The notes under the pieces: model-generated | The model's database searches: none | Told to the model about the DNA's origin: nothing | The model's input: the letters and a program-made list of their open reading frames with translations, nothing else | Shown here: piece by piece, positions 33,415 through 44,284 of the stretch | Position numbering within the stretch: the stretch's first letter is position 1 | Layout: each line of letters begins with the position of its first letter | Source of the DNA: Cercozoa sp. M6MM | Lineage: Eukaryota > Protista > Endomyxa: Ascetosporea | DNA: 63,998 nt | Reading direction: 5' to 3' (one strand) | Assembly: GCA_040357565.1 (NCBI GenBank) | Contig: JBDODJ010000006.1 | Made by a program: the position numbers and the translations under genes

Positions 33415-34719
33415 ATGCCGCGCAAACCCTTCGTCGGTGGCAACTGGAAGTGCGTACGTTGATTTTGTGTGTTGTTTTCTTGCATCACATGTTTGGATTT
33501 GTTTCCAGAACGGCACGGTGGAGACCATCCAGCAGCTCGCTGAAAGCATGAACCAGGACGTATGTTTATCCGTTCATGGGGCGTTATCTGGGTTCATGTG
33601 TAGCCCTTGGTAGGTGCAATTTGATGCTGCACAAGTGGATGTGGTGCTGGCACCGATCTCCTTGCACACGGCACTCGCTAAGGACACTCTGGACACTCGC
33701 TTTGCCGTTGCTTCGCAGAACGTGAGCGCCACCAACACAGGTGCTAGTCTTAGTTGACGAGGTTAAACTACTCATATGGTTTTCCTGTCTGCAGGTGCTT
33801 TCACCGGTGAGGTTGCTGCCTCGCAGATCAAGGACTTTGGCCTTAACTGGACTCTCGTGTACCTTTTTTGGCTTTAACATGTGAATTTGTGAATCTTCTT
33901 TCATTTTTCCAGCGGCCATTCGGAACGCCGTGCCATGTTCGGCGACACTGACGTACGCATATTTCCGCTGTTCCCTGTTCAGCGTGTGTTTTACATTGGA
34001 TAGATTGGTTCTCTGTGTGCAGGAGATTGTGGGCACCAAGGTTGCGATCGCCCAGGAGCACGGCCTGAACGTTGTTGCATGCGTCGGTACTAGATGCTAT
34101 TCCTACTGCACGTGTGTGTGTGTGCGTGTGTGTGTGTGTGTGTGTGTGTGTGTGTGTACAAATGTCTGCGACAGGTGAGACTCTCCAGCAACGTGAAACA
34201 GGCGAAACTGCCGCCGTTCTGAAGCGTCAACTGGCCGCCATCATCCGTATCGTGCTGTTTATTGGATGTACGATTCGTGAGGTGCATGTCTGTGGGACAG
34301 CCAAGGTGGCTGACTGGAACAAGGTCGTGATCGCCTACGAGCCGGTCTGGGCCATTGGCACCGGCCGTGTTGCCACGCCTGCACAGGTATATCATTGCCA
34401 TGGACTTTTCGACTTGTACTGCCTAAGAGAGTCTATCTGCGAGAACAGGCAGCCGAGGCGCACGAGGTGATCCGCGACTTTGTGGCACAGCAGGTGTCGA
34501 CGCAGATTGCCGACTCTGGTGCGCGTGTTCCTTGAGAATACCCTTTGTATATATGTTTACATGTGCTGGTGTTTGTTAGTGCGGATCGTTTACGGCGGCA
34601 GCGTCAAGCCAGCCAACTGCGTCGAGCTGTTCGCGCAGGAGCAGATCGACGGCTTCTTGGTGGGCGGTGCCTCGCTCAAGGCCGCCAGCTTCGCTCCCAT
34701 CGTGCAGAGCGCGCTCTAG
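33415..34719 (+). CDS. TPI1: Triosephosphate isomerase, 9 introns
   Basis: [61 protein letters not shown]; all catalytic motifs present after splicing. Confidence 0.98.
34112..34157. repeat. (TG)n microsatellite in a TPI intron
   Basis: Direct reading. Confidence 0.9.
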
Positions 34720-34766
34720 ACTTCAGTTCTGCTTTCAGGTTCAGTTGTTAATTAGAAGCTGTGGGA

Positions 34767-36462
34767 CTATGCTGTGGGACTATTATCATGATCATTGGCG
34801 CCGCTCCCGACGTCACCATGCCCATCAACATCCACATCGTTGTCGCTGGCACAGAGCGTGACGTTAGCGCTGGCGCTGTCGGCGACGAAGCTGCACCACA
34901 TGGCGGCACTCACGTCGTGCACGCTGTCGTTGAGGATACTCCTGTCGGCGTTGCTTGCGGTAGATGGGTCGACTGGTGGTCTGTGCAGCTGCCTGGAGGT
35001 GGAGTCGTTCTCTGCTGTTGTCGTTTGTGATCTGTCGTCAGTGTTTCCGTCAGTGGAATGGTCGTTGTTGATGGCACCGGCCTCGCTGTCTCTGTCGTCG
35101 TCGTCCTGCATGCGATCGCGCTGCTGCTGCTGCAGTGCCTGTACCTCACGGCGTTTCTCCCGTCGGTAGAAGGCGACGTTGGACGCCTGTGCTTGGCGCT
35201 GTCGCAGTGTCTGCTGCAGCTGTGACACGTCCTTGCGGAGTTCCGACAGTGACTGGAGTGACAGCTCGAGTCGCGAGACTTCCGCGCGGAACTCTGTATG
35301 CACCAGATGCGAGGGGAAAAGTGGATGTGAGTAGGGAGAAACGCACCCTTCGACTCGGCCTCGTCGGTGGCGACGTCAGTGTCGCGCGAACGTCGTCGCT
35401 TTTTGCGTTGCGGCAGTTCCTCCGCCTCGCTGTCGCTGTCCAGATCGCTGAACTCGCCGAGTTCCTCGTCCACTACAAAGGTGTGCTTTGCACCAACATA
35501 GCAGCCAACTATAGGATAAAAACAAGGCACCTTCCTGAGCAGAGCGACCTCTGGCACGGAGCAGAGTGCGCGCGGAACCAGCCATATCTTTCGTTTCGGC
35601 GCACACTGACGCGACTGCTGCCACGCTGCATCAAACACCAATACACATCCCCATAGGGAGAGATATATATACATTATATATATATATATATATATATATA
35701 TATATATACATACATCAACCAGTTGGTACCAAGGTGGAGCAGAGGCATCAAAGCAGCGGAGTGCTGCCCTTCGTACTCTTTTGCGCATCGCTTGAACTGT
35801 ACAGTGCAGTCAAATAGAATATAAAGTAAGTACACTGCATGAAGGAACCAAAGTACCCTTCCTGAGGAGACGCTCCTCTTTGGCAGTCGACGCAGCGAGT
35901 GCTTCGTCCACGGGTCCTTCGACAGGCGGCACCTCGGTCTGCGCGTCGAATTCAAGCACTGCCTCGGCGTTGTGTCGACTGAACGTTGTGCACTTCAGGT
36001 GCTCCAGTGCCTGCGAAACGCCAAGACACATCAGCACCAGGCAATAACAGCCACGCAAACACTCTTTCATCACTGTACCGCAAAGAAGACAACTCGCTCG
36101 TTTTCGCTCATGTTGCGTTCCTGCGCGACTTTATCGCGATTCTCGTCGAGGAACAGCGCGAATCGCTCGCGCAGCCACAGCAGCGACCGCAGCTGGTCCA
36201 GCAGAGCGACCTGCCGCCATTGCCGCGTGCGCTGGCTTCCTGACCGCGTTGGGTGCGCCTGCGAAATCTGTGAAGACTGTGATGACTGCACTGGCTGTGA
36301 AGCCTGCACTGGCTGTGAAGCCTGCACGGGTTGCGCGGCTTGCGGCGATTCGTCCCTCCTCTCGGGCGCACGTGCCTCCTGCGACTGTGCGGATGGCACC
36401 ACACCCGTTGGAGAAGAAGGAGGCAATTCCGCTGCGTCGTTGGAGCCGATCTCCGCGCTCAT
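34767..36462 (-). CDS. Hypothetical protein, probably nuclear (QASQPV repeats, acidic patch, NLS-like RKKRRRSR, coiled coil)
   Basis: ORF segments 36070-36462, 35810-36073 and 34767-35303 can be linked by short GT-AG introns; no family recognised. Confidence 0.55.
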
Positions 36463-41900: not shown

Positions 41901-42087
41901 TTTCTTTTTCCTGCACAGAAACGAGTTCTCGTCTCTCGCCAAAGCTGCACGTAGAGCAAAATACAGAGTCGTGACAAGACGTACAAGCGTTTGAAAGGTA
42001 ATCTAGCTCAAGAGCTTTCCGTGTTGTTCTTGTGTGGGTCGTTTTTTTTTTCACCTTGCTTCTGGCTTGATGTGTTTCTGACGCCAT
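38974..42087 (-). CDS. Hypothetical low-complexity Ser/Pro/Asp-rich multi-exon protein
   Basis: Exon-like blocks bounded by GT/AG (SAFDDYSFDDVFASDGDDEDMG; PQTPRVSIPTIQTPTSS; LPCVRCDCKACQDCSD). Start and exon phases uncertain. Confidence 0.4.
39228..39408. repeat. Compound (GTT)n(GT)n(GA)n microsatellite with gap
   Basis: Direct reading. Confidence 0.95.
40998..41087. repeat. (CA)n microsatellite, intronic
   Basis: Direct reading. Confidence 0.9.
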
Positions 42088-42265
42088 AACAGCCTCTCGC
42101 TGCACCTTTAGATTTGTGCACGTGCTTGGGATCAACTGTGTTTCGAGATGGCCCTTATTTATGGGCTTTGTGTCGACCTTGTTTACAGTTGACTTTCGCA
42201 TCTTTCGTTTGTTCTTGTTTTAATGTCTGTTTGTTCGTTTCGACGTGTACTCTGGTTTTAGTAGC

Positions 42266-44284
42266 ATGGGGTGCTGCGCTTTCTCGCGCATGTCCCCCGA
42301 GGACCGCGCATCACAGCGTCGGAGCCGTGACATGGTATTTCCTGCCTTTAGTGGTGCCGACAGTCATGTGTCTTTTGTGTGGTGCAGGAGCGCGAACTAC
42401 AGCGTCAACGACGCAAGGAAATGCAGATCAAGAAGCTGCTCCTGCTGGGTGCCGGTGAATCCGGCAAGTCGACGCTCTTCAAGCAGATGATCACTCTGTA
42501 CAGGTACTGGGTGTTTCACTGCCGTGCACAAGTTGAGTCAAACGGTTTGTGTCCGCGCGCAGAGGAGGTTTCAGTGTGGAGGATCGAAAGACATTCACCT
42601 CCGTCGTGTACGACAATTGTGTTGGTACATCACCATGCACGCAACACTACCTGTGCTTAACGTTCCCTGCCCCATCTGTCAGGTTCGATGAAAACGTTGA
42701 TCGAGGCCGCTATTGATCTTCAAGAGAGCGATGGTTCCTTTATGACTAAGACTCACCATAAAGATTTACCTTTGGTATACTGCCTGTAGGCACATACGTC
42801 GAGGCGAGCAACGAGAGCATTGCCCAGCACATTCTGGACCTGGAGCAGGACACTGAGGTGGCTAGCTGTCCTAATCAAAGCCGTCACTTGGAGTGCTCGT
42901 GAGTTTGTGCTTGTCTTTGTGCAGGTGGACATGGAACTGGCCGAGCAGATCAGTCGCTTGTGGCAGGACTCAGGCATCCAGAAAACCTTTTCCCTCAGCA
43001 GGTATCCCACGTGTGCTTGCTCCATTGCGCACCGTATTTCACCCCCCTCGTGTTGTCTGTCCGCAGCAAGTACCAACTGCTCGACTCTGCGTCATACTTT
43101 TTCGGCCGCGTCGCCGACATTGGTCGCCCAGACTATGTGCCTACCGAACAGGATGTCTTGCGCACGTACTCATTCTCTCTTTCTCTGCACGCACCCTTGT
43201 CTTGCTGTACGTGTTAATTTGTTCGTTGCTTGCAGTCGTGTGCGTACGACGGGTATCGTCGAGACGGCATTTGAGATCGAAAACAACCTGTTCAAAATGT
43301 TCGATGTTGGCGGTAGCTTACATATAGGCATATACGTATCTGCATAAGTGTGGGGATGATTTGCTTTGAGTGAGCAGGTCAGCGCAGTGAGCGACGAAAG
43401 TGGATCCACTGCTTCGAGGACGTCACGTCGGTGATTTTTGTTGCTGCCATCAGCGAGTACGACCAGGTACAACGTCCCTTGTTGTGCTACACCATGCATT
43501 GGCCAAAACAATGCGTTAAACTTAGATGTTGTACGAGGACGACGAAACCAATCGTGTCCATGAGGTATGTTCCCGCTGCCTGCAATGTGTGTGTGTGTGT
43601 GTGTGTGTGTGTGTGTGTGTGTGTGTGTGTGTGTGTGTTAATGTGTGTGTGTGTGTGTGTGTGTTAATGTGTGTGTGTGTGTGTGTGTGTGTGTGTGTGT
43701 GTGTGTGTGTGTGTNNNNNNNNNNTGTGTGTGTGTGTGTGTGTGTGTGTGTGTGTGTGTGTGTGTGTGTGTTAATGTGTGTTAATGTGTGTTAATGTGTG
43801 TTAATGTGTGCTGCGTGGTGATGTGCTCCATAGGCATTGAAGCTGTTTGACGATATCTGCAACTCGCGCTGGTTCAAGAAGATGCCGATCATCCTGTTCC
43901 TCAACAAGAAGGACCTCTTCGAAGAGAAGATTCAGAAGGTGCCGCTCACGGTGTGCTTCCCGGAGTTCGAGGGACCGCAGACCTTTGAGCGCGGCTGTGC
44001 CTACATGCAGGTACCCTTTTCGTCCACACAGCTATCGCTTGCGGTATGCCAGACTGACTGTGCACCACAGGAGAAGTTCGAAGAACTCGGCTCAGGCCAG
44101 AAGCAGATCTACACGCACGTGACGTGTGCCACCGACACCAAGAACATTGCGCACGTGTTCAATGCCGTCAAGGACATCCTCATCCGAGAGTCGCTTGTCA
44201 AGAGTATGCATGTTGCTGTGTCTCATCGGTGCCCGAGTGTCTATCTGTCTGTGTGCGTGTGCAGCTGGTTTGATTCCCACGTAA
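42266..44284 (+). CDS. Heterotrimeric G-protein alpha subunit, 12 introns
   Basis: MGCC lipidation-type N-terminus; [51 protein letters not shown]. Confidence 0.97.
43586..43810. repeat. (TG)n microsatellite plus (TTAATGTGTG)x4 in a G-alpha intron
   Basis: Direct reading; includes a 10-N gap. Confidence 0.95.

What the first reader, a model, noticed from the sequence alone, without database searches (positions are those of the whole stretch)
33415..44284. Unusual 5' splice-site code: +4 is C/U and +5G is mostly lost
Seen: 21 introns fixed by protein conservation. TPI donors: GTACGT, GTATGT, GTGCTA, GTACCT, GTACGC, GTACTA, GTATCG, GTATAT, GTGCGC. G-alpha donors: GTATTT, GTACTG, GTACAT, GTTCCT, GTGGCT, GTATCC, GTACTC, GTAGCT, GTACAA, GTATGT, GTACCC, GTATGC. 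Position +4 is C in 12, T in 7, G in 2 and A in none; +5 is G in only 6. GTAC/GTAT/GTGY also dominate the other genes, with GTAA only occasional. Established: the usual consensus is GTRAGT. Position +4 faces the m6A-modified A of the U6 ACAGAGA box, and shifts from +4A to +4U in fungi associate with loss of METTL16/SNRNP27K; +5G pairs with both U1 and U6. Inference: a C-dominated +4 with weak +5 predicts a rewired spliceosome (changed U6 ACAGA box or U1 5' end, and/or loss of U6 methylation), with short length helping to define introns. This is the best candidate for a genome-wide novel system here.
Basis: partly seen in the sequence, partly recalled or inferred. Interest (0 to 1): 0.78.

Follow-up and report, generated by a model that had tools for sequence, protein, structure and literature searches.

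The report
Amoeba introns that start with GUAC

Summary
Observation confirmed and extended. Database proteins of the rhizarian amoeba Cercozoa sp. M6MM (Lemnamoeba sinaloensis) map letter for letter onto the window and fix 74 more introns; my gene finder adds 107. Of 202 donors, +3 is A in 85%, +4 is C 56%, T 25%, G 10%, A 9%, and +5G (22%) sits at background; GTRAG is 7 of 202. +4A is rare, not absent. +4U is below background, so yeast-type METTL16 loss alone does not fit. +4A and +5G reappear where -1G or +3A is missing (15 vs 3, 33 vs 11 of about 100), whereas +4C does not vary. This points to a U1 with a canonical core and a shift at the U6 hand-over. U1, U6, METTL16 and SNRNP27K could not be examined. 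+4C donors are known in Mamiellophyceae (GTGCGT), but those keep +5G. I found no description of this code for this organism. Verdict: new variant of a known kind, directly testable.

The parts
33415..34719 (+). Triosephosphate isomerase gene, 9 introns: 33454-33508, 33560-33613, 33741-33794, 33859-33912, 33953-34022, 34087-34174, 34247-34300, 34387-34448, 34519-34579
   Evidence: Spliced frame of 250 aa; 2 of 3 exons tested hit PF00121
42266..44284 (+). G-protein alpha subunit gene, 12 introns: 42335-42387, 42504-42562, 42625-42682, 42734-42789, 42858-42924, 43002-43066, 43166-43235, 43313-43377, 43467-43525, 43565-43833 (TG repeat with an N gap), 44011-44070, 44204-44264
   Evidence: Spliced frame of 358 aa; 3 of 3 exons tested hit PF00503
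13077..14568 (+). FHA plus nucleotide-cyclase gene, 6 introns fixed by database protein P0008 (+4: C4 T1 A1; +5G 0)
   Evidence: Exact spliced map; name MHM6MM_000659; Pfam
19557..26553 (+). Dopey/DOP1-like gene, 30 introns fixed by database protein P0246 (+4: C15 T7 A5 G3; +5G 7)
   Evidence: Exact spliced map; names; Pfam Dopey_N; counts
374..9051 (-). Large gene, 38 introns fixed by database protein P0247 (+4: C22 T9 A6 G1; +5G 5); residues 1-2218 of 2468 map, the rest presumably lies beyond the window start
   Evidence: Spliced map; name MHM6MM_000657; counts
9729..63998 (.). 107 further introns predicted in about 20 other gene models (posterior at least 0.9; only +3 of the donor trained): +4 C60 T26 G15 A6; +5G 26
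   Evidence: Gene finder written here; 63 of 65 such calls exact inside the anchored genes, an optimistic figure because those introns helped train the acceptor and length models

Best explanation
These are short GT-AG introns whose donor signal has shrunk to G|GUA plus a preferred C at +4; a U1 snRNA with an unchanged core likely still finds them, while the later hand-over to the U6 ACAGA box likely no longer rewards +4A and +5G. Shown: the consensus; the return of +4A and +5G (more weakly +7U, +8U) only in donors that lack -1G or +3A; the constancy of +4C; the scarcity of GUAA in intron bodies. Inferred: with a weak U6 helix, U1 must let go easily, so total U1 pairing is held in a narrow range. 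Canonical bases are then used only as rescue, C at +4 and +5 is favoured because it cannot pair with the U1 bases opposite, and stray GUAA would act as a U1 trap. Narrow intron length and a U-rich body likely supply the missing information (intron definition). Whether the U6 step is weakened by lost methylation or by changed proteins is untested.
For: Donors with -1 not G or +3 not A (n=100) against G|GTA donors (n=102): +4A 15 vs 3 (P=0.003), +5G 33 vs 11 (P<0.001), +8T 48 vs 34, +7T 63 vs 49; +4C 54 vs 59 (P=0.67). Same direction in the anchored set (10/48 vs 2/47; 14/48 vs 4/47) and the predicted set (5/52 vs 1/55; 19/52 vs 7/55). +3G donors keep +5G, 17 of 28 against 27 of 174. In G|GTA donors +5G is 11%, under the 19% background. 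+5C is also enriched (68 vs 43-49 expected). GTAA is the most depleted of 256 tetramers in intron bodies (6 vs 22.8; antisense 30 vs 38; P=2e-6 against other xTAA). snRNA guide sequences rarely change: U6 ACAGA invariant in 240 species and the U1 site invariant in those where U1 was found, both unchanged in Fritillaria. That over-stable U1 pairing can block the U1-to-U6 switch in yeast is recalled, from no call.
Against: No snRNA or splicing-factor sequence was seen. The rescue by +4A and +5G could come from a canonical U6 rather than U1, as the -1/+5 seesaw is attributed to U5 versus U6 elsewhere. The weak/strong split was defined after looking at the data. +6U, a canonical U1 and U6 partner, shows neither enrichment nor rescue (47 vs 43). 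+7U (55%; 70% when -1 is not G) is not predicted by canonical U1, and its link to -1 is only suggestive (13 of 150 permutations reach it). The order C>U>G,A at +4 is also what a G partner would give. Summed canonical U1 pairing on the intron side did not anticorrelate with the exon side (rho -0.02). GUAA scarcity could have another cause.
Confidence: 0.4

Rival explanations
1. U6 has a changed ACAGA box with G opposite +4 (perhaps also a change opposite +5 and A opposite +7), so that it reads GUAC by Watson-Crick pairing while U1 stays canonical; the two guides then pull +4 and +5 in opposite directions.
For: +4 order C 56, U 25, G 10, A 9% suits a G partner; +4C is constant across donor classes, as a separate checkpoint would be; +5C and +7U enriched. 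A compensatory change at this U6 base is known in Cyanidioschyzon merolae.
Against: Box invariant in 240 species despite repeated +4 switches. 44% of donors lack +4C. With G opposite +4 and C kept opposite +5, GTACG should be common but is 7 of 95 GTAC donors. U, a wobble partner, is below background. U6 not seen.
Confidence: 0.25
2. Yeast-type switch: loss of METTL16 and/or SNRNP27K Met141 leaves U6 unmethylated and by itself drives +4 away from A.
For: +4A rare, GTAAG 0 of 95 anchored and 2 of 202 overall. In Arabidopsis fio1, +5G is harmful together with +4A and use shifts to -1G sites.
Against: Known switches are almost only A to U with little change in the S:W ratio, and fio1 shifts C/G to U; here C exceeds U twofold and U is under background. 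Mutants tolerate +4A best with strong exon pairing; here +4A donors mostly lack -1G (5 of 18 have it). Known losses are in intron-poor species; this one has 10-13 introns per gene. Gene presence untested.
Confidence: 0.12
3. The U1 5' end has co-evolved (G opposite +4), as reported for Entamoeba's altered donors.
For: Precedent (title and abstract start only). A G at that position raises mean pairing from 5.7 to 6.3 of 11 (circular by design). +7U may reflect an A at U1 position 2.
Against: +4C gives no rescue of weak donors while +4A does; GTAC is not purged from intron bodies (47 vs 39 expected) while GTAA is.
Confidence: 0.1
4. No mechanism: +4 to +6 are simply unconstrained and the C reflects base composition, annotation bias or the legacy of an intron-making transposon.
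For: +5 and +6 do carry almost no information (0.03 and 0.17 bits, 0.10 and 0.02 against background). +4A among GTA donors (6%) equals that of GTA decoys inside introns (4%). One 64 kb window only.
Against: +4C exceeds zero-, first- and second-order background (z 6-11) and GTA decoys in introns (54% vs 30%, P=6e-4). Seen with a donor-blind finder and without gene models. No intron families, terminal inverted repeats or long junction repeats; no introner signal reported for the species.
Confidence: 0.08
5. The introns are degenerate U12-type, or are read by U11/U6atac-like guides (Y at +4, C at +5, U at +7).
For: Commonest hexamer is GTACCT; +5C and +7U enriched; six GTATCC donors.
Against: -1G in 59% is a major-intron trait. 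None of the six GTATCC introns has a U12-like branch motif (5 of 202 introns overall). The 3' end is YAG with a U/G-rich tract and no branch motif was enriched. No AT-AC introns were needed to map the three database proteins.
Confidence: 0.04

Closest known systems
Mamiellophyceae canonical introns (Micromonas AG|GTGCGT, PMC3879977; Ostreococcus lucimarinus GTGCGTG, PMC2483917)
   Same: C is the consensus base at +4 of GT-AG introns; an snRNA change was raised as a possibility there too (passages).
   Different: Those have +3G, keep +5G and +6T, have a strong branch point and are few per gene. Here +3A, +5G at background, no detectable branch motif, 10-13 introns per gene.
Saccharomycotina +4A to +4U switch linked to METTL16/SNRNP27K (Parker et al. 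2023, PMC10581693)
   Same: Loss of +4A preference at the base facing the U6 m6A position.
   Different: There the switch is to U, +5 varies little and the species are intron-poor (abstract and sections 5-7). Here C dominates, U is under background and +5G is gone.
[quoted passage not shown]
   Same: Seesaw between -1G and +4A/+5G is present (22 of 120 vs 33 of 82).
   Different: The GURAG class is nearly absent (7 of 202), -2A is weak (30%), and the free positions are C-biased.
Entamoeba transformed donors with a co-evolved snRNA (bioRxiv 10.1101/2022.06.08.495308) and C. merolae U6 ACUGAGA (PMC10581693, PMC10158995)
   Same: Show that a changed donor code can be matched by a changed guide RNA.
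   Different: Entamoeba preprint seen only as a search listing. No guide RNA was seen here, and the donor statistics argue against the U1 version.
Fritillaria borealis non-canonical introns (PMC13326754)
   Same: Altered donors with unchanged U1 5' end and U6 box, reduced U6 m6A although METTL16 is present (passages); shows that gene presence alone cannot settle the methylation question.
   Different: There 95% of introns are not GT-AG; here the ends are canonical.

Membership tests
U2-type (major) spliceosomal introns | GT..AG ends whose removal restores the frame | tested here: met
   95 of 95 anchored introns
U2-type (major) spliceosomal introns | -1G at the donor and YAG with a U-rich tract at the acceptor | tested here: met
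   -1G 120 of 202; -3 is C 68%, T 31% in 151 introns
U2-type (major) spliceosomal introns | GTRAG donor consensus | tested here: not met
   7 of 202; GTAAG 0 of 95 anchored
U2-type (major) spliceosomal introns | Removal shown in RNA | tested here: inconclusive
   No RNA holder was listed. 74 introns rest on a transcriptome-trained annotation, not on reads seen here
METTL16/SNRNP27K-loss +4U switch | +4U preference with +5G kept | tested here: not met
   U 25%, below 39.5% background; +5G at background
METTL16/SNRNP27K-loss +4U switch | Absence of METTL16 or SNRNP27K Met141 | not testable with these tools
   No genome held. A search seeded with bacterial RlmF listed 120 of 1744 hits; those that carry a name are RlmF and none is named as eukaryotic. 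No mention in the readable supplements
Mamiellophyceae-type GTGCGT donors | +4C consensus | tested here: met
   113 of 202
Mamiellophyceae-type GTGCGT donors | +3G, +5G and strong branch point | tested here: not met
   +3G 14%, +5G 22%, GTGCGT 6 of 202; CTRAY in 14 of 151
Donor code with co-evolved snRNA (Entamoeba, C. merolae) | Complementary change in the U1 5' end or U6 box | not testable with these tools
   No snRNA in the window; no genome
U12-type introns | RTATCC donor together with a conserved branch motif near the 3' end | tested here: not met
   6 GTATCC donors, none with the branch motif; motif definition recalled
Introner elements | Sequence families, terminal inverted repeats or target duplications | tested here: not met
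   5 blastn hits of 13-17 nt, mostly low-complexity, among 202 introns; inverted-repeat score 3.40 vs 3.42 shuffled

The most novel reading that the evidence does not exclude
An intron-rich eukaryote (on the order of 100,000 introns) has rewritten the U6 ACAGA box, one of the most invariant RNA motifs of the spliceosome, to read GUAC donors, while U1 keeps its old code: a natural genome-wide experiment that separates what U1 and U6 each demand of a 5' splice site.
Probability: 0.25. Interest if true: 0.82.

Novelty: new variant of a known kind. Interest (0 to 1): 0.55.

Why it matters
+5G pairs with both U1 and U6 and is usually the best-kept intron base after GU. An intron-rich genome that splices with it at background, and prefers C at the base facing U6 m6A, lies off the known A/U axis tied to METTL16 and SNRNP27K. 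The organism is in culture with a chromosome-level assembly and transcriptome reads, so one Infernal run, a few HMM searches and a junction logo would test how much of donor choice is set by U1, by U6 and by methylation. If U6 is canonical it shows how little U6 pairing splicing needs; if it is changed it is a rare rewrite of a catalytic-core RNA. It also matters for annotating related genomes, where standard donor models would fit badly.

Tried and rejected
Own genome: none held. RNA runs: no RNA holder listed. snRNA in the window: none at gathering score or at E up to 1, only repeat-driven matches; no tRNA. METTL16: a search seeded with an E. coli RlmF fragment listed only RlmF-like proteins (best 120 of 1744), so nothing follows about METTL16. 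SNRNP27K, U1C and LUC7 were not searched, for lack of a seed. Metagenome scan with the ARL8 exon: 59 loci, best 72% on a part, none close to this organism, not used further. Short U6 core motif in viral contigs: 0 matches. Branch point: no 4- or 5-mer above z about 3. UGUAA as a poly(A) signal explaining GTAA scarcity: not supported, 3 of 25 3' flanks against 4 of 25 antisense. Introner origin: rejected. Intron length modulo 3: even, 65/67/70. +5G with +6T and +4T with +5G looked linked, but the +4T/+5G link matched intron dinucleotide background and both were dropped. Rows dropped: predicted introns under the posterior thresholds and those inside the five anchored genes; microsatellites were masked in backgrounds. 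Literature: ten searches gave no description of this organism's donor consensus. PMC10639083 had no hit for the rhizarian terms. PMC12730881, PMC2397502, PMC3033335, PMC10245619 and PMC11347168 gave no comparable donor logo in text; figures are not held. Supplements: four files each of the two genome papers were searched by term; further files and all figures were not visible and could hold a logo or splicing-factor table.
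Full report
Observation. With corrected boundaries they give open frames of 250 and 358 aa; +3 is A17 G3 T1, +4 is C12 T7 G2 A0, +5 is G in 6. Two of three TPI exons and three of three G-alpha exons tested hit their Pfam families. 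No intron can be slid, though 8 of 21 have another in-frame GT nearby and I did not align homologues across each junction.

Organism. An exon at 13716-14225 is 100% identical to a protein named MHM6MM_000659 of Cercozoa sp. M6MM; two more window genes match MHM6MM_000663 and _000657. M6MM is now Lemnamoeba sinaloensis (Rhizaria, Apofilosa): 27 Mb, 13 introns per gene, mean 82 nt, 99.5% GT-AG, no introner signal (PMC13746701, passages). In the passages and readable supplements searched, neither paper describes donor positions beyond GT or the snRNAs.

Larger sample. The three database proteins map letter for letter with 6, 30 and 38 introns. These 74 give +3A 85%, +4 C41 T17 A12 G4, +5G 12. A gene finder that knew only GT at the donor gave 75 confident introns in other genes (C42 T21 G8 A4; 41 of 47 exact where checkable). 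With +3 trained it gave 107 (63 of 65 exact where checkable, optimistic). All 202: -1G 59%, +3A 85%, +4 C56 T25 G10 A9%, +5 C34 and G, A, T 22% each, +6T 45%, +7T 55%; GTAC 95, GTRAG 7, GTATGT 9. Local background (+10 to +26) is A18 C24 G19 T40%. So +4C is strongly enriched (z 6-11 under three backgrounds), +4U is depleted (P=7e-6), +5G and +6U are at background, +5C and +7U are modestly enriched. Without gene models, GTAC (+21) and GTAT (+14) but not GTAA (+0.6) are in excess 50-66 nt before 301 acceptor-like sites; GTGT (+28) is also in excess, probably from TG repeats. The donor holds about 6.5-6.8 bits, of which +5 gives 0.03-0.10. Introns are short (median 58, range 47-269), U-rich, end in YAG and show no enriched branch motif.

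What the dependencies say. Donors lacking -1G or +3A carry more +4A (15/100 vs 3/102) and +5G (33/100 vs 11/102), and somewhat more +7U and +8U; both subsets agree for +4A and +5G. +4C is flat (54 vs 59) and so is +6U. The split was chosen after seeing the data. The -1/+7U link has family-wise P about 0.09, and summed canonical U1 pairing showed no exon-intron anticorrelation. GTAA is the most depleted tetramer in intron bodies (6 vs 22.8), not on the antisense strand, and is also lower in coding frames (11/93 vs 52/232, P=0.03), whereas GTAC is not depleted. Thus a guide with the canonical bases opposite +4 and +5 appears still to operate as rescue, while C at +4 is a separate, constant preference.

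Mechanism (inferred). The most economical reading is a canonical-core U1 plus a U6 step that no longer rewards +4A/+5G. Pairing to U1 would be kept moderate so that it can be displaced, which makes C, unable to pair with the U1 bases opposite, the default at +4 and +5 and makes stray GUAA costly (0.40). The main rival is a U6 box with G opposite +4 (0.25): it fits the order C>U>G,A and has a precedent in C. merolae, but the box was invariant in 240 species and GTACG is rare (7 of 95 GTAC donors). METTL16/SNRNP27K loss alone (0.12) explains the missing A but predicts U over C (PMC10581693 section 6; PMC9803359 passages). A changed U1 (0.10) has the Entamoeba precedent (listing only) but fails the rescue test. 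Composition or introner legacy (0.08) and U12-like reading (0.04) are argued against. None of U1, U6, METTL16 or SNRNP27K could be examined.

Comparison and novelty. +4C consensus donors are known: GTGCGT(G) in Micromonas and Ostreococcus (passages), but they keep +5G, use +3G and have strong branch points. Weak +5G is noted for plants in general terms (with that paper's numbering unclear) and I recall it for ciliates and Plasmodium, from no call. The combination of +3A, C-dominated +4, +5G at background and GUAA avoidance in a genome with 10-13 introns per gene was not found in ten literature searches; comparative surveys in subscription journals and all figures were out of reach. Two unchecked notes from this scan report a GTGC code in a probable telonemid and a GTT code with a changed U1 in a rotifer relative, so shifted donor codes recur. 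Limits: one 64 kb window of a 27 Mb genome, no reads, about half the introns predicted by me.

Verdict: real, window-wide and probably genome-wide; a new variant of a known kind; interest 0.55, rising to about 0.8 if U6 proves to be rewritten.

Noticed in passing
window, intron bodies of 202 introns: GTAA is the most depleted of 256 tetramers on the sense strand (6 vs 22.8 expected), although none of the six lies far enough from the 3' end to be a usable donor; also lower in coding frames.
   Followed up: partly
window, position +7 of introns: U in 55% and G in 8%; U in 57 of 82 donors without -1G. Canonical U1 and U6 would favour A here (recalled), so an A in the guide or a U-binding protein is possible.
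   Followed up: partly
window 43002, 24433, 26406, 54085 (+); 5652, 60966 (-): Six GTATCC donors resembling U12-type starts, none with a U12-like branch motif.
   Followed up: partly
window 43565-43833, 37389-37439, 34125-34158, 30625-30950, 39230-39410: Long TG/CA and GA microsatellites, several with N gaps, mostly in or near predicted introns; abundant AC:GT repeats are already reported for the species.
   Followed up: no
window 374-9051 (-): 2468-aa protein MHM6MM_000657 with one paralog in the same organism (36% over the tested part) and only weak Cys-rich ephrin-receptor-like Pfam matches near residue 1620; no clear family.
   Followed up: partly
window 15189-17483 (-): Gene model with two GYG pore-like motifs and an EF-hand-like end, probably a two-pore potassium channel, with 16-17 introns in about 420 codons; from my model only.
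   Followed up: no
window 34719-34767 and 62871-62943: Convergent genes end about 50-70 bases apart (TPI with a minus-strand gene; a DnaJ-like with a phosphoacetylglucosamine-mutase-like model), so 3' ends probably overlap.
   Followed up: no
window about 47740-47815: Three head-to-tail copies of a unit of about 29-31 bases, seen by eye upstream of a minus-strand gene model; not run through a repeat finder.
   Followed up: no
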